Below, piece by piece: positions 4,377-18,554 of a stretch of 64,000 nt of DNA. Source of the stretch: a virus (lineage: Duplodnaviria > Caudoviricetes); IMG/VR virus record IMGVR_UViG_3300032092_000001; one strand, given 5' to 3'. A program made the translations under genes and the position numbers. A model generated the notes under the pieces. It was not told the DNA's origin. It worked only from the letters and a program-made list of their open reading frames with translations, and ran no database searches. How positions within the stretch are numbered: the first letter of the stretch is position 1; each line of letters begins with the position of its first letter.

Positions 4377-4451
4377 TGAAGAAGACGGGAATCGAACCTC
4401 GTGGCACAAGGGTTTTCGGACCCTTTGCTCTACCTTCTGAGCTACTTCTTC
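4377..4451 (-). tRNA. tRNA-Phe-like with aberrant 8-nt anticodon loop (TCCGAAAA) and bulged T-stem
   Basis: GAAGAAG/CTTCTTC acceptor + A73; GCTC-AGAAGGTA-GAGC D-arm; AAGGG/CCCTT anticodon stem; TTCGATT T-loop. Confidence 0.7.
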
Positions 4452-6398: not shown

Positions 6399-7055
6399 AT
6401 GGCAGTAAATATTGAGTTCTTTTTTAAACAGTTCACTAAAATGAATCATACAATTAATTGTGAGAATGGTTTGCAATTAATTTGGTCGGGAGATTATAAG
6501 GAAAGATTTGTAAAGAGATTCAAAGACAAGGAAGATGTTCCAATATACTTCATTAATAATCCCCAAGATTCACCGTACACAAAGGAAGCTCTCACACAGT
6601 TTATTGAGTCCAAATTAGAATCATTTAGAGAAATTATTCCAATAGATGAAAGTTATATTACAAGTCGTCTATACGAGATTGACTCTGAAGAAGCATTATT
6701 TATTCCAAATAAAGTATTAAGAAACATTACAAATAAATTACAAAAAGTCACGGTTGACAAATCAGTAAACCCCGTAAGATTAATTGGAGAATTTGACGGT
6801 CAGTTTGAAATATCTCAAGATGATGAGAATATACTTGTTTATATAGATTTCTCACTTTCAGAATTACAGTTAAACGGAGAAGAAATAGATAGTTCCCATG
6901 ATGAATACGATGAATGGATTGATTATTTCAGATACGATAATAACGAGTTCCTTGAAGACGGGATTTGGGTCTGTTTTAGTGAATTAACCAATAACAAAAA
7001 CTTTTATAACTATGAGTGGATGGGTTGGTATAGTAATTTCTATTTCATTACCTAA
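6399..7055 (+). CDS. Hypothetical protein (218 aa)
   Basis: ORF track; TATTTAT upstream. Confidence 0.8.
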   Translation: MAVNIEFFFKQFTKMNHTINCENGLQLIWSGDYKERFVKRFKDKEDVPIYFINNPQDSPYTKEALTQFIESKLESFREIIPIDESYITSRLYEIDSEEALFIPNKVLRNITNKLQKVTVDKSVNPVRLIGEFDGQFEISQDDENILVYIDFSLSELQLNGEEIDSSHDEYDEWIDYFRYDNNEFLEDGIWVCFSELTNNKNFYNYEWMGWYSNFYFIT

Positions 7056-8625
7056 TTAATACCACGTGTCCTTTTTCTACGTGTCCAATTCCTCTGTCGT
7101 CCCTATACGTCATTATCCAGTTATAAACACCTGTCTGACAATAGTACCCACTACCATCATTACCATTCCAAGTTTGGTTTAATGATTTAATATTATAAAC
7201 CATCATACCATCTCTACTGTAAATCTTCATATCAGGTTCATAAACTGACATACCAGCAATTTTAAACACGTCGTTGAATCCATCATTATTTGGTGTAAAT
7301 GAATTGGGAACATACAATCTATAACAAGTGTTTGTTCTAATGGTGATTGCATTTAACTCACTCTCACAACCCAAAGTATCAGTTCCATAAACTGTAATGG
7401 TATGGTCCATAGTCGTGTCAGGCCAAAGAACATTTAATTCAAAGTCAGTATCAGGTTGTAAAACACCATCAACATGCCAAGTATATTCAATACCAACACT
7501 ATCAGGAGCCAAATAAGTTTGGTTATAAGGGTCAGTACAGAAATCAATGAAGTTTGATTGAGCAAATATTTCAGGAGCTTCAAACTTTGGTCTCACATAA
7601 ATCTCAACGGAATCAACAACAGGACACCCATATATGTTAACAAAATACAATGAATAATATGTACCTGAATTAAACCCAGTGAAAACATTCCCAACCAAAT
7701 TCTCTCCATTCCAAAATCCACCTGAAGGACTTGCTGATAACTGAACCGTCTCTTCCAAACAGATACCAATATTGTCTTGGCCAAATGTAATTAAAGTATC
7801 CACAACAGTAATTGTTGTATCAATAATATCACCAATACATCCATCAACAGTTGTTTCTTGTACAGATATTACATAATCACCTGGTACCCCACCCCATTCA
7901 ACATCAATACTATTTGTTCCGTTGTCAGTCATAGTACCTCCACCAGAAATAGTCCAATCATATGTTGAACCAACAGTATTTACAACTGAATATGTTTCAA
8001 CAAGTCCAACACATATCGTATCCATTGGAACATCAATAGGTGAAGTTACAACATCACCTCCAAGAACAGTTCCATTGAATACTTGAAACGGAGAATCAAA
8101 ACAAGACTCGGTTCCCCAACTACCCATAGTTCCATCAGCATAAGGAGTAACCTCAATCAACAACGACAAAGGGTCACACTCATCAGTAACTTGTAACTGA
8201 ACACAAAAAGACCATAGACAATCAAGACCAAAATCCCCCCAATCATTACCAGGGTTTCCATCAGTAGGTCCTTGAGGTCCCTCATAGAAATAACCCGGTC
8301 CAACAGTTAATGTCCCATCATTATTTGTAACACTTTCAGACCATAACCATTGTTGAGGTGGTACCGCTCCACCACAATCATCAGGTCCTGAAATAGGACT
8401 GTGTGATACCCATCCCGGTCCCAAAGTCAATCCAAACCCCTCAATCCAATTGGACCCAAAGTTAGTTCCATTCCAACCGTTCATCGTGTAACACATAGTT
8501 ACAACAGTTTCCGGTTCATAAGTCCCATTAGTAGGTGATGGCGTTAATGTAAAAGATTGGACCCCAGCACATTGTGAAAGGACAATATTGGGGATTAATA
8601 ATAGGAAAAATAGGATTGTTCTCAT
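7048..8625 (-). CDS. Secreted protein with gliding-motility-associated (T9SS type-B / CHU_C) C-terminal domain and PKD/Ig-like repeats
   Basis: Signal peptide MRTILFFLLLIPNIVLSQC; C-terminus LYVPNSFTPNNDGFNDVFKI...IYSRDG...WNG...GVY...KGHVVLIR. Confidence 0.85.
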   Translation of the reverse strand: MRTILFFLLLIPNIVLSQCAGVQSFTLTPSPTNGTYEPETVVTMCYTMNGWNGTNFGSNWIEGFGLTLGPGWVSHSPISGPDDCGGAVPPQQWLWSESVTNNDGTLTVGPGYFYEGPQGPTDGNPGNDWGDFGLDCLWSFCVQLQVTDECDPLSLLIEVTPYADGTMGSWGTESCFDSPFQVFNGTVLGGDVVTSPIDVPMDTICVGLVETYSVVNTVGSTYDWTISGGGTMTDNGTNSIDVEWGGVPGDYVISVQETTVDGCIGDIIDTTITVVDTLITFGQDNIGICLEETVQLSASPSGGFWNGENLVGNVFTGFNSGTYYSLYFVNIYGCPVVDSVEIYVRPKFEAPEIFAQSNFIDFCTDPYNQTYLAPDSVGIEYTWHVDGVLQPDTDFELNVLWPDTTMDHTITVYGTDTLGCESELNAITIRTNTCYRLYVPNSFTPNNDGFNDVFKIAGMSVYEPDMKIYSRDGMMVYNIKSLNQTWNGNDGSGYYCQTGVYNWIMTYRDDRGIGHVEKGHVVLIR

Positions 8626-8669
8626 GCCGATAAATATCAACATAGATACAAATAAGATTATAATAGTTG

Positions 8670-8747
8670 TACCCCCTGAGAGACTCGAACTCTCACCCTA
8701 AGACATCGTTCTAAGCGATGCGCGTCTGCCTATTCCGCCAAGGGGGC
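8670..8747 (-). tRNA. tRNA-Leu(TAG), short variable arm
   Basis: GCCCCCT/AGGGGGT acceptor + A73; GCGGAATAGGCAGACGC D-arm; CATCG-CTTAGAA-CGATG; GAGAG-TTCGAGT-CTCTC. Confidence 0.88.
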
Positions 8748-8749
8748 AA

Positions 8750-8961
8750 ATTCCCCACCCTGAGATTATGGTGAGTAGTCATATCGGTTTTTTCCTATTT
8801 GTAAAAACCTGATGGGCATCCCCGTTAAAAAAAGTCAGACTACGTGGCGGTGTGTCAGGACCGTTACTCCACGGCTGGGTACTATCGGCATTTCCCAGTC
8901 TATACCGAGTCCATTGTTAAATGAGTCTTGGACCAAAGACTGTTGAGTATCTCTTACTCAT
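8750..8961 (-). ncRNA. Candidate ~210-nt RNA with tandem H-type pseudoknots between two tRNA genes
   Basis: AGUCU/AGACU with loop GGUCCA pairing UGGACU; CGGUAU/AUGCCG with loop CUGGG pairing CCCAG; CGUGG/CCACG; AUC.GGUUUUU/AAAAACCGAU; CACC/GGUG. Confidence 0.5.
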
Positions 8962-8963
8962 TG

Positions 8964-9039
8964 CAATCAGAACAGGATTCGAACCTGTGAATCACTCTCT
9001 TTCAAAGAGAGTTGTGTTTCCCTATCTCACTACCTGACT
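8964..9039 (-). tRNA. tRNA-like gene with register-ambiguous anticodon (TTG Gln or TGA Ser in a short-variable-arm body)
   Basis: AGTCAGG/TCTGATT acceptor; ACTCTCTTTGAAAGAGAGT anticodon arm; ACAGG-TTCGAAT-CCTGT T-arm identical to that of 428-542. Confidence 0.65.
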
Positions 9040-9053
9040 ATGTTTTTAATCTC

Positions 9054-9075
9054 TCAAAGAACTTCAACAAAGATA
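9054..9075 (-). promoter_or_regulatory. Bacteroidota-type -7 promoter element followed by boxA-like sequence, heading the tRNA/ncRNA operon
   Basis: TATCTTTG (9075-9068) then AAGTTCTTTGA (9064-9054). Confidence 0.6.
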
Positions 9076-9086
9076 TGGTAACTTTT

Positions 9087-9389
9087 TCATTCCACCAAAT
9101 CTTTTTCCACATCTTCATACCATTCTTCAACCGCAAATAATAATTGAATAAACTCACCATCTTCATCCGATTCATACTTAACATGGAACCCACCTGTTGA
9201 TATATTTGTTTTTTCCTCAAACGCCATTTTTAATAATCGTCTTGCTTCTTGTCTCAATTCAGGAACAGTAGGAATACCTTCTTCAGAAGCCACCCACTCC
9301 CAATTTAATGATTCCATTACTTTTTGGACTTGTTCAAACTTGAAGTAGTCCATTATGTTGTCAATCGCGACTTGTTGTTTCGGTGTCAT
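9087..9389 (-). CDS. Hypothetical protein (100 aa)
   Basis: Start set at MTPKQQ, just after the upstream gene's stop. Confidence 0.75.
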   Translation of the reverse strand: MTPKQQVAIDNIMDYFKFEQVQKVMESLNWEWVASEEGIPTVPELRQEARRLLKMAFEEKTNISTGGFHVKYESDEDGEFIQLLFAVEEWYEDVEKDLVE

Positions 9390-11099: not shown

Positions 11100-11672
11100 T
11101 TACCCTTGTAAGAAAGATAATATTTTTTCTTTCACCCCAACTTGTTTGATACCCTCATTGTTCAAAGGTGTATGAACGAAATTATCTAAACCCCATTCGT
11201 GCTCAAATTCCATTGAGTAATGTATCCCTATCTTTCTCATATCCAAATCATCAATTGCAACCCAATGAGTTACTTCGGGATGCTCCTTTAACCATTCTTG
11301 GATTTGTATGCTTCTTGTCCCTTCCAAATCCCAATTTCGGTGCCATGTAACTTTTTCACCATCAATCACATTTGTTGTGAAATCAATTGGTCGTTTGATG
11401 ATACCTTGTTTCTCATAGTAATCCCCCATCTCTTCAACTGAGCACCAAACTTTCCAATCGGAAGATACAACGATTTCTGCACCGGTCTGTTCCAAGATTT
11501 CATTCAATACCTTGATTGACTTCTTGTCAAAGTTATCAAAACGAGCATCAAGAGGCATTGTCATCACTGATTGACTCAATTTTTTTCTATACTTCTTTTG
11601 TTTTGTAAATCGTGACCCAAAGTTATTGTTTAGACAGATAACTCCATCGTGGTCTAAAAATATAACTTTCAT
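11100..11672 (-). CDS. HAD-domain protein of the Swiss-Army-Knife RNA-repair type
   Basis: MKVIFLDHDGV, IVVSSDWK, WVAIDD motifs. Confidence 0.8.
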   Translation of the reverse strand: MKVIFLDHDGVICLNNNFGSRFTKQKKYRKKLSQSVMTMPLDARFDNFDKKSIKVLNEILEQTGAEIVVSSDWKVWCSVEEMGDYYEKQGIIKRPIDFTTNVIDGEKVTWHRNWDLEGTRSIQIQEWLKEHPEVTHWVAIDDLDMRKIGIHYSMEFEHEWGLDNFVHTPLNNEGIKQVGVKEKILSFLQG

Positions 11673-11673
11673 A

Positions 11674-11844
11674 TTATTTCTTTTTGGAGAGTCTCTCTCG
11701 GTTGGTTTGTTTCTTTTCAGGCGGATGTTTATACTTAATCTCAACTGAAATTGGTCCGTTCTTGAACTTTGTTAAATCATAAGTCCAAACGGTAACCGCC
11801 TCATCATCTTCGTAAACTTGTTGGTATTGTTCTTTTTTACTCAT
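11674..11844 (-). CDS. Hypothetical protein (56 aa)
   Basis: Hand-translated MSKKEQYQQVYEDDEAVTVWTYDLTKFKNGPISVEIKY...; promoter motif upstream. Confidence 0.6.
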   Translation of the reverse strand: MSKKEQYQQVYEDDEAVTVWTYDLTKFKNGPISVEIKYKHPPEKKQTNRERLSKKK

Positions 11845-16227: not shown

Positions 16228-17064
16228 TTACTTCAATAAATTGTAATATTCCTTAAAGTGTTTGATTCTGTCAGGTAAACCTATAGTCCCACCATTAACT
16301 CGTTTAGTCACCGCAGTTACAGTATCGTCATCAGCACCCTTGTCACAAATAGACCAAAGTTTATTTGAGTCAAAGAAAAATGCGGCAGATGCCAATGGAT
16401 ATTTTGTAGCAACTAAATCCGGATTGGATACCGTGTCTTCACCAATAAACTTAGCGAAGTTCGTATAGTTCTGTTTTCCAGTCAACTGAATGTAACCTCG
16501 GCCACGAAATTTATAACCTTCTTTGGTTGACTCGTCACCATTACCCATTCTTCCACCATAAACTTTTGATGCAATTTTTTCAGGGTTTCTAGCATATCCC
16601 TCGGCTAAATTACCAGGAAAATACTTCGGGAAGATTTTCTTTAAACCGTCAGCAGAATAATTTAAATTCTCTTGAACCGCTTTAAATCCACCTGACTCGT
16701 GTCCACATTGAGCCAAGAAATGGGCTAATCTTAATGGGTTAGTGATATTGAATTTCTTAGCAGTGTCAGGGATTTGAGCAATTACAGCATCAGGAATATG
16801 TCCTTTAAGATTCTGCAATTTAAATTCTGAACTTGTAGGAATTACAACATCTTCTTTTATCACTTGAGCAGGTTGTTCAGTCGCTCCGAACATTTTACTC
16901 CAAGTTCCATCACCAACAATTCCGTCAGCAGTTAATCCGTTAGCTGCTTGCCATTCTTTAACTTTAGCCGCTGTTCCATTACCGAAGATACCATCAGCGG
17001 TAAGTCCTAATTTTGCTTGGAGTTTTTTAACGTCTTCTCCCTGAGACCCAACTTTTAGTAACAT
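16228..17064 (-). CDS. Endolysin: N-terminal peptidoglycan-binding domain plus GH19 (chitinase-class) catalytic domain
   Basis: LLKVGSQGEDVKKLQ...ADGIFG...ADGIVG; HFLAQCGHESGGF, ENLNYS, FRGRGYIQLTGK, RVNGG. Confidence 0.9.
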   Translation of the reverse strand: MLLKVGSQGEDVKKLQAKLGLTADGIFGNGTAAKVKEWQAANGLTADGIVGDGTWSKMFGATEQPAQVIKEDVVIPTSSEFKLQNLKGHIPDAVIAQIPDTAKKFNITNPLRLAHFLAQCGHESGGFKAVQENLNYSADGLKKIFPKYFPGNLAEGYARNPEKIASKVYGGRMGNGDESTKEGYKFRGRGYIQLTGKQNYTNFAKFIGEDTVSNPDLVATKYPLASAAFFFDSNKLWSICDKGADDDTVTAVTKRVNGGTIGLPDRIKHFKEYYNLLK

Positions 17065-17364: not shown

Positions 17365-18272
17365 GATTAGTTAATATAGCCTGAGATTACAGCTTTATGT
17401 GAGAACCTTTTGAAGTATTATTGTTTTACTTCGTATCCACTTCCTTTTGAGAAGTATTTCTCAGTCACGGTCTTTTAGGTTTACCACTCCTTGAGGTCTA
17501 AGTTACTCTCTTCTTACTCAACTCTTTCCGAGGTTGCCACCCCAGTTCGTCCTTGCGGGATTAAAGGTTTTTCGTAAAACTACAGTCGGACTTGGGGTCT
17601 TTCTGTGCAATGAACGGCTCATTACTATGTAGTGACCTTTCACCTAAACCTGATGGACACTTTTCCTTAATGTATTTTTTAATTATTGGATAATTTTGGA
17701 ATCCATTAGTTTTGTGTCGTAGATGTGTCAGAGTAGTGGTCCACCGTAAGCTCCGTCTCCTTTTGGGCGACAGAATACTAAACTACTCCGTGAAGTGTCC
17801 CCACCTCCATATTTCAAGATTACTTCATAAAGATACCTTGGTAGGTCGTCTTTAAGGATAGTAGCGACACCACTCGTTCTCTATCTTACCTTTCGGTTTT
17901 AAGTCCTCTATCGTATTGGAACCCGCAATAGTGTAATTGGATAATCACATTTTTTACTTGATTCCTATGGGTTATTCTTGTTGTTCTTCCGAACTCAACC
18001 TGATAATCTACTTTACCAGGTCACCCTTCCATTTTCCCTACGAAGTCATCCTCGGTACTAAAGGTTTGGTGATATCCCACTTGTGTACTTGAGTTCTCCA
18101 CCCCTTACGGGGTTTCAAACCGCAGCCTCCTCAACACGGGGGAGACCACTTTATCCTACTTTAGTAGTTTATTTAAGGACCATACACGGCCCATTATCGT
18201 TTATCTCTTTTCAGTGCTCATATTCGTCACACGAAGGTGGGAATACGACTTACTCAGAGAATGGATAATCTA
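17365..18272 (-). ncRNA. Large (~900 nt) ornate structured ncRNA, GOLLD/ROOL-like
   Basis: No credible ORF; GC-richer than flanks; minus-strand GNRA hairpins (ACCCC-GUAA-GGGGU, ACC-GAAA-GGU, CC-GCAA-GG); long-range helices 17655-62/17793-800, 17731-37/17782-88, 17714-19/17864-69; own promoters and terminator. Confidence 0.8.
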
Positions 18273-18275
18273 TTT

Positions 18276-18554
18276 TTTCAAAGAACGTTTCGGACATTTC
18301 CGAATTGTTTTACAAATTTACGACATTTATTTCTATTTGTCAAGTTATTTGTGAACTTTTTTTGAGATTTGGAACTTTCATCGTTTTACCACTTTGTGAA
18401 CCTTAATCTCAAATTCTTTACAAACTTACGACTTTTTTTTCAATCTGTCAAATAAATTAAGAACTTTTTTTTTCAATTTGACTACCGAGTATCTTTCATT
18501 CCCTATAAGTGTCAAATCTTTTACAAACTTACGGCAAGAAATTGGTAGTGTCAA
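18276..18554 (-). promoter_or_regulatory. Three tandem Bacteroidota-type promoters plus boxA-like element
   Basis: TTGACA-17nt-TAA(A/G)TTTG at 18343-18313, 18451-18421, 18554-18524; CGTTCTTTGAAA at 18287-18276. Confidence 0.8.

What the first reader, a model, noticed from the sequence alone, without database searches (positions are those of the whole stretch)
8750..8961. Compact RNA with tandem H-type pseudoknots, bracketed by tRNA genes
Seen (minus strand): hairpin UGAGUA/UACUCA; pseudoknot 1 (AGUCU/AGACU plus GGUCCA/UGGACU); pseudoknot 2 (CGGUAU/AUGCCG plus CUGGG/CCCAG); a CGUGG/CCACG domain; a U/A-rich hairpin; CACC/GGUG. The 5' UGAGUA can alternatively pair with a second UACUCA near the 3' end, closing the whole domain. 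It sits in a boxA-led operon between two tRNAs, so tRNA maturation would excise it. Inference: an undescribed phage small RNA.
Basis: partly seen in the sequence, partly recalled or inferred. Interest (0 to 1): 0.6.

Follow-up and report, generated by a model that had tools for sequence, protein, structure and literature searches.

The report
Uncatalogued pseudoknotted RNA among phage tRNAs
The 215 bases between two tRNA genes of this uncultured large phage encode a real, strongly conserved folded RNA with three pseudoknots in a row, which matches no catalogued RNA family and whose function is still unknown.

Summary
Window 8748-8962 (minus strand) fills the gap between a tRNA-shaped gene (8963-9039) and tRNA-Leu(UAG) (8669-8747). 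It belongs to a family with about 100 distinct versions in more than 130 uncultured phage contigs (IMG/VR). It is single copy in five 245-465 kb genomes.

In the 5' half 90.9% of cells pair, against 32-40% when partners are slid. In the 3' half 88.6% pair, against 42-61%. Fifty of 58 pairs show changes on both sides.

The proposed alternative closing helix (UGAGUA with the second UACUCA) gets no covariation support. New here: the near-invariant loops of the first and last hairpins (GAGAU and AUCUC) are complementary.

Rfam 15 gives no match even at E of 10. The family models do not hit T4 rnaC or rnaD. No copy was found in cultured phages or GTDB genomes.

Best reading: a stable small RNA released by tRNA-processing enzymes. 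The pseudoknots act as a scaffold that presents the two invariant loops. The function is unknown.

The scan met this family before on other DNA (e1-5340851, e1-5765774). The boxA claim is undecided, and nothing points to self-cleavage.

The parts
8748..8962 (-). The whole RNA as bounded by the flanking tRNA genes (215 nt; RNA position p = 8963 minus window coordinate). The first two A residues probably belong to the CAA trailer of the upstream tRNA-shaped gene.
8944..8960 (-). H1: 5' hairpin UGAGUA/UACUCA with loop AGAGA. It is almost invariant. Two fully compensatory changes occur in relatives (G-C to A-U in L272, A-U to G-C in L242).
8908..8941 (-). Pseudoknot 1: stem S1 (p22-26/35-39) whose loop (p29-34) pairs with p50-55 (S2). 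The A-rich linker is p40-49.
   Evidence: S1 92.5% and S2 92.9% of cells paired, 10 of 11 pairs with changes on both sides.
8875..8907 (-). Pseudoknot 2: stem S3 (p56-61/72-77) whose loop (p65-69) pairs with p84-88 (S4). It abuts pseudoknot 1 without a spacer.
   Evidence: S3 82.6% and S4 84.9% paired, all 11 pairs with changes on both sides.
8838..8873 (-). Pseudoknot 3: outer stem S5 (p90-94/116-120), inner stem S6 (p100-102/113-115), and loop p107-109 pairing with p123-125 (S7). S7 has only 3 bp in this copy and 4-6 bp in most relatives. The GUA at p120-122 is invariant.
   Evidence: helices 1-5; S7 was not part of the model, 78-81% paired.
8827..8833 (-). Conserved U run (p130-136) between pseudoknot 3 and H8. 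It is a possible third strand for the U-A helix H9 (speculative).
   Evidence: conservation. (H9 U-A pairs keep their polarity)
8814..8823 (-). H8: short hairpin GGG/CCC with loop GAUG. Relatives have either GAYG or GUAAGA loops.
   Evidence: helix 6, 88.5% paired, all 3 pairs covary.
8785..8811 (-). H9: U/A-rich hairpin C-(A)-GGUUUUU / AAAAACC-G (p152-178). The outer C-G pair covaries.
   Evidence: helices 7-9. (C175-G303 pair, 91 of 99 canonical)
8754..8778 (-). Conserved CUAC, then H10: hairpin CUCACC/GGUGGG (p188-193/204-209) with loop AUAAUCUCAG. The loop's AUCUC is complementary to GAGAU of H1.
   Evidence: helix 10, 96.8% paired, all 6 pairs covary. (loop-loop pairing possible in 98 of 99)
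8963..9039 (-). Upstream tRNA-shaped gene. ARAGORN calls it tRNA-Ser(UGA), but it lacks the long variable arm. It is a member of the AGUCAGG...CCUGAYUR frame family, and its 3' processing would set the 5' end of the RNA.
8669..8747 (-). Downstream tRNA-Leu(UAG). RNase P cleavage at its 5' end would set the 3' end of the RNA.
9054..9062 (-). GTTCTTTGA motif upstream of the RNA gene cluster. It could be boxA-like or promoter -35-like, undecided.

Best explanation
This is a gene for a stable, trans-acting structured small RNA of about 210 nt. It is one member of a widespread family, absent from Rfam, that large uncultured phages (host probably Bacteroidota) carry once per genome inside their tRNA gene arrays.

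The RNA is transcribed with the neighbouring tRNAs. It is cut out by the enzymes that mature them. RNase P, cutting at the 5' end of the downstream tRNA, makes its 3' end. 3'-end processing of the upstream tRNA-shaped gene makes its 5' end.

Three H-type pseudoknots stacked end to end, plus two hairpins, form a rigid and nuclease-resistant scaffold whose sequence is free to drift. The working surfaces are the parts that do not drift:

- the 5' hairpin H1 (loop AGAGA);
- the loop AAUCUCA of the 3' hairpin H10;
- GUA, CUAC and a U run.

The H1 and H10 loops can pair with each other over 4-5 bp. That would either clamp the two ends of one molecule together or join molecules head to tail. The partner or target that these invariant parts serve is unknown.

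Shown: the family, the fold, the strand, the tRNA bracketing and the single copy. Inferred: excision, stability, loop-loop pairing and action in trans.
For: Family and fold:
- More than 120 IMG/VR contigs hold the H1 motif (capped). Further members came from an independent motif.
- There are 99 aligned members. In the 5' half 90.9% of cells pair against 32-40% slid, covariation is 0.489 against at most 0.12, and 23 of 28 pairs change on both sides.
- In the 3' half 88.6% pair against 42-61% slid, covariation is 0.329 against at most 0.066, and 27 of 30 pairs change on both sides.
- Helices S1, S3 and S7 were not in the models used for alignment and still pair in 78-93% of cells.
- Mutual information independently ranks the same pairs on top.

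Strand: abundant G-U pairs (for example U-G in 91 of 98 sequences at one H10 pair) would be A-C on the other strand.

Excision: a tRNA ends exactly 2 nt upstream in 40 of 85 members and a tRNA starts 2-5 nt downstream in 55 of 85. Most of the others have tRNA-shaped genes there, and the tRNA identities vary.

Single copy: one copy in each of five 245-465 kb genomes and one in the window.

Invariant loops: GAGAU/AUCUC pairing is possible in 98 of 99 sequences. All seven loop changes seen (A to G in H1, C to U in H10) keep a wobble pair.

[quoted passage not shown] GOLLD and ROOL are encoded near phage tRNA islands and assemble through loop contacts (PMC12286853).

Host: the neighbouring ORF carries a type IX secretion sorting domain.
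Against: - No expression, processing or stability data exist. The phages are uncultured, and no cultured phage has a copy.
- The loop-loop pairing has no compensatory double change, because both loops barely vary. It is compatible with the data rather than demonstrated.
- The nested fold of the single sequence is not unusually stable (z = -0.64).
- No partner protein emerged. TROVE/Ro is in 1 of 5 related genomes, RtcB in 0 of 5, and the RNA-repair HAD in 4 of 5 but unlinked.
- A purely cis role in the tRNA precursor is not excluded.
Confidence: 0.55

Rival explanations
1. It is a cis-acting module of the tRNA precursor. A structured spacer would organise folding, order the RNase P and RNase Z cuts, or shield the polycistronic tRNA transcript from nucleases, and would be discarded after processing.
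For: It is always wedged between tRNA or tRNA-shaped genes with 2-5 nt spacers, whatever their identity. An H1 hairpin alone sits between two tRNAs in L138, and a 42-nt H1-H10 fusion sits in L092. Phage tRNAs in these contigs share a CAA trailer that runs straight into H1.
Against: There is only one copy per genome, although these genomes hold 15-26 tRNAs, most of them packed 5-10 nt apart without any such spacer. A 17-nt invariant hairpin, an invariant loop and about 58 covarying pairs are far more than a spacer needs.
Confidence: 0.15
2. It is a decoy or counter-defence RNA in the conflict over tRNAs. The excised RNA would bind and block a host nuclease, or another defence protein that attacks tRNAs or the translation machinery.
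For: The phage invests in this conflict. It has tRNA arrays and 137 versions of a tRNA-shaped frame with a hypervariable middle in related contigs. An RNA-repair-type HAD phosphatase lies 2 kb upstream and occurs in 4 of 5 related genomes. The motifs stay invariant across phages whose proteins have diverged to 30-40% identity, which suggests a conserved host target.
Against: Nothing in the RNA resembles a tRNA anticodon arm or any other known nuclease substrate. The repair gene is not linked to the RNA in other genomes. No defence-related partner was identified.
Confidence: 0.12
3. It is a self-cleaving ribozyme that trims its own end next to the tRNA, as HDV-like theta ribozymes do behind phage tRNAs.
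For: It sits immediately 3' of a tRNA-shaped gene, has pseudoknots and has highly conserved nucleotides.
Against: No ribozyme family of Rfam 15 (hammerhead, HDV-like, twister, pistol, hatchet and others) matches even at E of 10. The covariation-supported topology starts with a plain hairpin followed by classical H-type pseudoknots, not the nested double pseudoknot of HDV-like ribozymes. Flanking tRNAs already provide both cuts.
Confidence: 0.04
4. It is a DNA-level element such as a palindromic protein-binding site or a recombination site, or a small protein-coding gene, rather than an RNA.
For: H1 is a near-palindrome at the DNA level. A 44-codon ORF lies on the plus strand (8812-8946). The UACUCAC direct repeat seems to have mediated a deletion in L092.
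Against: The pairs are kept through G-U wobbles that work on one strand only. There are 50 pairs with compensatory changes. Relatives differ by 1-2 nt insertions and deletions throughout, and by insertions of 40-70 nt. None of this fits a reading frame or a DNA site.
Confidence: 0.02

Closest known systems
Phage T4 small stable RNAs C and D (rnaC 139 nt, rnaD 119 nt; 'species 1 and 2')
   Same: They are non-tRNA stable RNA genes embedded in a phage tRNA cluster, abutting a tRNA by 1-6 nt. They are therefore released by tRNA processing. Their roles are still unknown (PMC3014915).
   Different: There is no sequence or structure homology: models R1 and R2 give no hit on rnaC or rnaD at E of 10 with filters off. 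This RNA is larger, has three tandem pseudoknots, and comes from unrelated jumbo phages of a different host phylum.
GOLLD and ROOL RNAs
   Same: They are phage-borne ornate RNAs of unknown function encoded near tRNA islands. They are rich in pseudoknots and self-assemble through a few loop contacts (PMC12286853). A GOLLD gene lies 8.4 kb away in this window.
   Different: They are 2-4 times larger and share no homology with this RNA. GOLLD was not found in five genomes that carry this RNA. Assembly of this RNA is only a possibility.
tmRNA pseudoknot string (PK2-PK4) and the tobamovirus upstream pseudoknot domain next to a tRNA-like structure
   Same: Both have several classical H-type pseudoknots stacked in a row, next to a tRNA-shaped domain.
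   Different: This RNA has no tRNA-like domain formed by its own ends and no tag reading frame. ARAGORN and Rfam find no tmRNA. The adjacent tRNA-shaped gene is a separate closed cloverleaf.
phi29 prohead RNA (pRNA)
   Same: It is a small phage RNA with two loops that are complementary to each other. In pRNA this pairing joins molecules into a ring (my own knowledge).
   Different: There is no homology (Rfam has a pRNA family, no hit). The fold and the genomic place differ, and this RNA has no link to packaging genes. Whether the loops here pair within or between molecules is unknown.
ENE / MALAT1-type triple helix upstream of an RNase P-cleaved tRNA-like element
   Same: The order is a U run, a small hairpin, a second U tract and an A tract, followed downstream by an RNase P site. 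The U-A pairs of H9 never flip polarity, as expected if a third strand reads the A strand.
   Different: The A tract is 40 nt from the 3' end, not at it. Triples cannot be tested by covariation here. This is only a resemblance recalled from memory.

Membership tests
Any Rfam 15 family (4,227 models) | Score at or above the family's gathering threshold, or at least a marginal E-value | tested here: not met
   gathering thresholds; E up to 10 on 8600-9100. Only the two flanking tRNAs match, and nothing matches inside 8748-8962.
T4 rnaC / rnaD stable RNAs | Gene lies inside a phage tRNA cluster, directly abutting tRNA genes | tested here: met
   There are 2-5 nt gaps to tRNAs on both sides here, and 1-6 nt gaps in T4.
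T4 rnaC / rnaD stable RNAs | Sequence or structure homology to rnaC or rnaD | tested here: not met
   No R1 or R2 match overlaps L278 1909-2172 at E of 10 with filters off.
T4 rnaC / rnaD stable RNAs | Accumulates as a stable processed RNA during infection | not testable with these tools
   No transcript data exist for these uncultured phages.
tmRNA | tRNA-like domain formed by the 5' and 3' ends, plus a tag reading frame | tested here: not met
   ARAGORN's tmRNA search found none and Rfam gave no hit. The ends form separate hairpins H1 and H10.
tmRNA | String of H-type pseudoknots | tested here: met
   Three tandem pseudoknots are supported by covariation.
HDV-like / theta ribozymes | Nested double pseudoknot whose P1 strand starts at the cleavage site right behind the tRNA | tested here: not met
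   The first element is a self-contained hairpin with its own compensatory changes. The pseudoknots are classical H-type and sequential. There is no Rfam hit.
HDV-like / theta ribozymes | Self-cleavage | not testable with these tools
   This needs an in vitro cleavage assay.
GOLLD / ROOL (large ornate phage RNAs) | Homology to the family model; length above 500 nt | tested here: not met
   The RNA is 205-290 nt in all members.
GOLLD / ROOL (large ornate phage RNAs) | Homo-oligomer held by loop-loop contacts | tested here: inconclusive
   Complementary invariant loops exist. Whether they pair within or between molecules cannot be told from sequence.
phi29 pRNA | Homology to the pRNA model; gene next to the packaging end of the genome | tested here: not met
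   There is no Rfam hit. The gene lies in tRNA arrays.
Bacterial Y RNA (YrlA) / Ro system | Ro60 (TROVE) protein encoded with the RNA; often RtcB nearby | tested here: not met
   TROVE is in 1 of 5 and RtcB in 0 of 5 genomes that carry the RNA. There is no Rfam hit.
ENE-type triple helix | Two U tracts flanking a stem that clamp an A tract by U-A-U triples | tested here: inconclusive
   The U run is conserved and the H9 U-A pairs keep their polarity. Triples leave no covariation signal to test.

The most novel reading that the evidence does not exclude
The two invariant, mutually complementary terminal loops (H1 GAGAU and H10 AUCUC) pair between molecules. The rigid three-pseudoknot rod would then polymerise head to tail, or close into a ring or cage. 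That would make it a small RNA-only assembly, as in phi29 pRNA or the GOLLD and ROOL nanocages, built from a tRNA-processing by-product and perhaps stabilised by an internal U-A-U triple helix.
Probability: 0.15. Interest if true: 0.8.

Novelty: new variant of a known kind. Interest (0 to 1): 0.55.

Why it matters
Phage tRNA clusters have been known since T4 to hide stable RNAs that nobody can explain. GOLLD and ROOL showed that such RNAs can be spectacular RNA-only machines.

This family adds a compact, very well supported example: about 58 covarying pairs and three tandem pseudoknots in about 210 nt. It is single copy and widespread in jumbo phages of a likely Bacteroidota host. Its functional candidates are sharply defined: a 17-nt invariant hairpin and a complementary invariant loop.

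It is small enough for synthesis, probing, cryo-EM and mutational tests. It could therefore become a tractable model for what the non-tRNA genes in phage tRNA arrays do.

The two covariance models made here, or equivalent ones, would let the family be annotated in viral metagenomes.

Tried and rejected
- Single-sequence folding gave an ordinary energy (z = -0.64) and misses the pseudoknots, so it is uninformative.
- RNAalifold on a plain MAFFT alignment of full-length members found only 12 pairs, because the variable stems were misaligned. Structure-aware MAFFT modes are not installed.
- A greedy helix parser worked for only part of the family. I replaced it with two covariance models.
- Cultured phages (INPHARED, blastn) gave only a 63-nt tRNA-like hit.
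- No whole genome is held for the window.
- A scan of GTDB genomes for the H1 motif gave 18 hits, about what chance gives. None holds the full RNA. One Bacteroidia MAG contig is cut after 39 nt.
- GOLLD co-occurrence: 0 of 5.
- Ro/TROVE and RtcB partners: 1 of 5 and 0 of 5.
- The RNA-repair HAD is present in 4 of 5 genomes but unlinked.
- Neighbouring small ORFs, including the conserved 113-aa one just upstream, have no Pfam or PHROG family.
- T4 rnaC and rnaD show no homology.
- The alternative closing helix UGAGUA with the distal UACUCA has no compensatory change. Its distal strand covaries within H10 instead.
- A long-range GUA(G)/CUAC helix has both sides invariant and cognate pairing no better than non-cognate, so it is undecidable.
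- A contact between the H8 loop and the base before CUAC is only a correlation between two subfamilies.
- The published IMG/VR catalogue of candidate RNAs (PMC10690425) has no supplementary files held here, so overlap could not be checked.

Full report
WHAT IS THERE

On the minus strand, window 8963-9039 is a tRNA-shaped gene and 8669-8747 is tRNA-Leu(UAG) (ARAGORN; Rfam tRNA model at 44.7 and 53.8 bits). The 215 nt between them (8748-8962) are the finding. I number the RNA so that position 1 is window 8962.

Rfam 15 finds nothing in the stretch, at gathering thresholds or at E up to 10. A nested minimum-free-energy fold is no better than shuffled sequence (z = -0.64). The single sequence therefore proves nothing, and the case rests on relatives.

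RELATIVES

Cultured phages have no copy, and no genome is held for the window. IMG/VR contigs found through the two neighbouring proteins carry the same spacer. Its two ends are almost invariant and its middle is variable.

A scan with an independent motif near the 3' end added members whose 5' hairpin differs. Altogether there are about 100 distinct versions of 205-290 nt.

- In five 245-465 kb phage genomes (74-98% complete) the RNA occurs exactly once. It occurs once in the window.
- GTDB species genomes have no full copy. The 18 motif hits are about what chance gives, and only a 4.4-kb Bacteroidia MAG contig, cut after 39 nt, looks real.
- The ORF just downstream (7048-8643) carries a CHU_C type IX secretion sorting domain. 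That secretion system is confined to Bacteroidota (established knowledge), so the host is probably a member of that phylum.

THE FOLD

A plain MAFFT alignment misaligned the variable stems. I therefore built two covariance models from curated sub-alignments: R1 for the 5' half and R2 for the 3' half. I realigned 99 members with them.

5' half:
- 90.9% of cells form standard pairs, against 32-40% when the 3' partners are slid by 1-3 columns.
- The covariation score is 0.489, against 0.03-0.12 for slid partners.
- 23 of 28 pairs change on both sides.
- None of 500 shuffles reaches any observed measure.

3' half:
- 88.6% of cells pair, against 42-61% slid.
- The covariation score is 0.329, against 0.03-0.066.
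- 27 of 30 pairs change on both sides.

S1, S3 and S7 were deliberately left out of the models, so their alignment was not fitted to them. They still pair in 92.5%, 82.6% and 78-81% of cells. An alignment-free control agrees: each sequence's own strands pair much better than strands taken from different members. For S2 the duplex energy is -5.9 against -2.1 kcal/mol, and for S4 it is -7.6 against -2.9. Mutual information with average-product correction ranks the same pairs on top.

The resulting architecture in the window copy:
- H1: 3-8/14-19.
- Pseudoknot 1: S1 22-26/35-39 and S2 29-34/50-55.
- Pseudoknot 2: S3 56-61/72-77 and S4 65-69/84-88, abutting pseudoknot 1 without a spacer.
- Pseudoknot 3: S5 90-94/116-120, S6 100-102/113-115, and S7 joining loop 107-109 to 123-125.
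- A conserved U run: 130-136.
- H8: 140-142/147-149.
- H9: 152 and 154-160 with 171-178.
- Conserved CUAC: 185-188.
- H10: 188-193/204-209.

Frequent G-U pairs fix the strand. For example, one H10 pair is U-G in 91 of 98 sequences, and it would be A-C on the plus strand. Insertions and deletions of 1-2 nt, and inserts of 40-70 nt, rule out coding.

THE ALTERNATIVE CLOSING HELIX

UGAGUA (3-8) can pair with the second UACUCA (186-191) in 86 of 99 members, but only because both are nearly invariant. There is not one compensatory change.

H1 has two compensatory changes: G4-C18 to A-U in L272 and A5-U17 to G-C in L242. The CUCA of the distal copy covaries with its H10 partner; for instance C-G becomes U-A in 8 sequences. 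Where the distal copy diverges (L083, L091), H1 and H10 stay intact and the alternative helix loses pairs. A switch cannot be excluded, but the data favour H1 plus H10.

INVARIANT PARTS

The near-invariant parts are H1 with its loop, GUA (120-122), part of the U run, CUAC, and AAUCUCA in the H10 loop.

New here: GAGAU of H1 (10-14) is complementary to AUCUC of the H10 loop (197-201). All five pairs can form in 98 of 99 members. The seven changes seen in these positions are A to G on the H1 side or C to U on the H10 side, and every one keeps a wobble pair. This is compatible with a loop-loop contact but does not prove it. An earlier first-stage note on another genome saw the same complementarity (e1-5765774).

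The U-A pairs of H9 never flip polarity (U-A in 92 and 91 of 98), and a conserved U run lies upstream. A U-A-U triple helix is conceivable but untestable here.

CONTEXT

There are 85 distinct members with enough flank.
- In 40, ARAGORN calls a tRNA ending exactly 2 nt before H1. Of the other 45, 30 have a T-loop motif in the last 40 nt.
- In 55, a tRNA starts 2-5 nt after the RNA. Of the other 30, 19 have a tRNA-shaped gene there.
- The tRNA identities vary (Asp, Gly, Gln, Glu and others upstream; Ser, Asp, Pro, Met and others downstream). The association is therefore with tRNA processing, not with one tRNA.

The trailer CAA follows the discriminator of the phage tRNAs generally and runs into H1. 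Both ends of the RNA would thus be made by tRNA maturation: RNase P at the 3' side and tRNA 3'-end processing at the 5' side. This is inferred from layout. The precedent is T4, where rnaD and rnaC follow tRNA-Arg by 1 and 6 nt and whose roles are still unknown (PMC3014915).

BOXA

GTTCTTTGA lies 15 nt upstream of the tRNA-shaped gene. It is 14-fold enriched in 1.4 Mb of related loci (154 hits against about 11 expected), usually as GTTCTTTGACATATTGG. It resembles boxA, but it also contains a TTGACA -35 hexamer. I cannot tell which it is.

WHAT IT IS NOT

- It is in no Rfam family, and that includes all ribozyme classes, tmRNA, RNase P, 6S, pRNA, Y RNA, GOLLD and ROOL.
- It is not homologous to T4 rnaC or rnaD.
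- It is not a tmRNA.
- It does not have an HDV-like topology, because it starts with a plain hairpin followed by sequential H-type pseudoknots.
- It is not tied to Ro/RtcB or to GOLLD.
- An RNA-repair-type HAD protein lies 2 kb upstream and occurs in 4 of 5 related genomes, but far from the RNA in three of those four.

MECHANISM

My best reading (0.55) is a stable, excised, trans-acting RNA. The three stacked pseudoknots are a drifting but always-maintained scaffold. The invariant H1, the H10 loop, GUA, CUAC and the U run are the working surface. The H1-H10 loop complementarity either clamps the two ends together or joins molecules.

Rivals:
- A cis-acting processing or stability module (0.15). 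One copy per genome among 15-26 tightly packed tRNAs argues against it.
- A decoy in the tRNA conflict (0.12).
- A ribozyme (0.04).
- A DNA-level or coding element (0.02).

The boldest reading not excluded is an RNA-only oligomer by head-to-tail loop pairing (about 0.15).

NOVELTY

The kind, a structured RNA of unknown function inside phage tRNA clusters, is known (T4 RNAs C and D; GOLLD and ROOL near tRNA islands, PMC12286853). This family is distinct from all of them and absent from Rfam.

There are two caveats.
- This scan has already met the family on other DNA. e1-5340851 shares 62 of 75 words with my sequence, and e1-5765774 describes the same layout. Other uncatalogued families in phage tRNA arrays have been reported by sister agents.
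- A published catalogue of 8,495 anonymous IMG/VR candidate RNAs of 29-151 nt (PMC10690425) could contain fragments.

Noticed in passing
window 17378-17790 (-); ORF 16228-17064 (-): A full-length GOLLD RNA (306 bits, gathering score 150) lies 8.4 kb from the finding. It sits directly upstream of an endolysin-like ORF (PG_binding_1 plus glycoside hydrolase 19). This fits reports that GOLLD is tied to lysis.
   Followed up: partly
window 8963-9039 (-); many loci, e.g. L055, L057, L072, L087, L167: The upstream 'tRNA-Ser(UGA)' lacks the long variable arm of bacterial Ser tRNAs. It belongs to a tRNA-shaped frame family (AGUCAGG ... GGUUCGAAUCCUGUCCUGACUA) whose middle is hypervariable. I found 137 distinct versions of 71-189 nt in the fetched loci, often several per contig. 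Related contigs have a genuine 88-nt tRNA-Ser(UGA) after the RNA, and the window lacks it.
   Followed up: partly
window 9054-9062, 18278-18286, 60570-60578 (all -): The motif GTTCTTTGA, usually GTTCTTTGACATATTGG in relatives, is 14-fold enriched in related loci. It could be boxA-like or a promoter -35 element. One copy lies about 490 nt upstream of GOLLD.
   Followed up: partly
window 8664-8668 and 8961-8963; many loci: The phage tRNA genes of this group are followed by CAA after the discriminator instead of an encoded CCA.
   Followed up: no
window 7048-8643 (-): A 531-aa ORF has a C-terminal CHU_C type IX secretion sorting domain and a weak PKD-like match. A phage-encoded protein aimed at the Bacteroidota secretion system also serves as a host clue.
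   Followed up: partly
window 11100-11744 (-): A 214-aa ORF has the HAD domain of 'Swiss Army Knife' RNA repair proteins (E 8e-22). The domain is present in 4 of 5 related large genomes, so these phages carry RNA-repair functions.
   Followed up: partly
L092 4138-4180 (+); L138 8205-8221 (+): L092 holds a 42-nt version in which H1 runs straight into the H10 loop and 3' arm. This looks like a deletion between the two UACUCAC repeats. L138 holds the H1 hairpin alone between tRNA-Thr and tRNA-Leu(UAA).
   Followed up: partly
window 8814-8823 and 8779 (-); alignment A5 columns 98-100 and 311: The H8 loop type (GAUG or GUAAGA) correlates with the base just before CUAC (A or U). A 3-bp AGA/UCU contact is possible only in the second class. 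This may be a tertiary contact or only subfamily history.
   Followed up: partly
window 4377-4451 (-): Rfam calls a tRNA here (53.5 bits) that ARAGORN does not report. It may be another aberrant tRNA-shaped gene.
   Followed up: no
L015, L019, L022, L080, L099, L100, L128, L167, L173: A long subfamily (256-290 nt) carries an extra 40-70 nt structured insert between H8 and H9.
   Followed up: no
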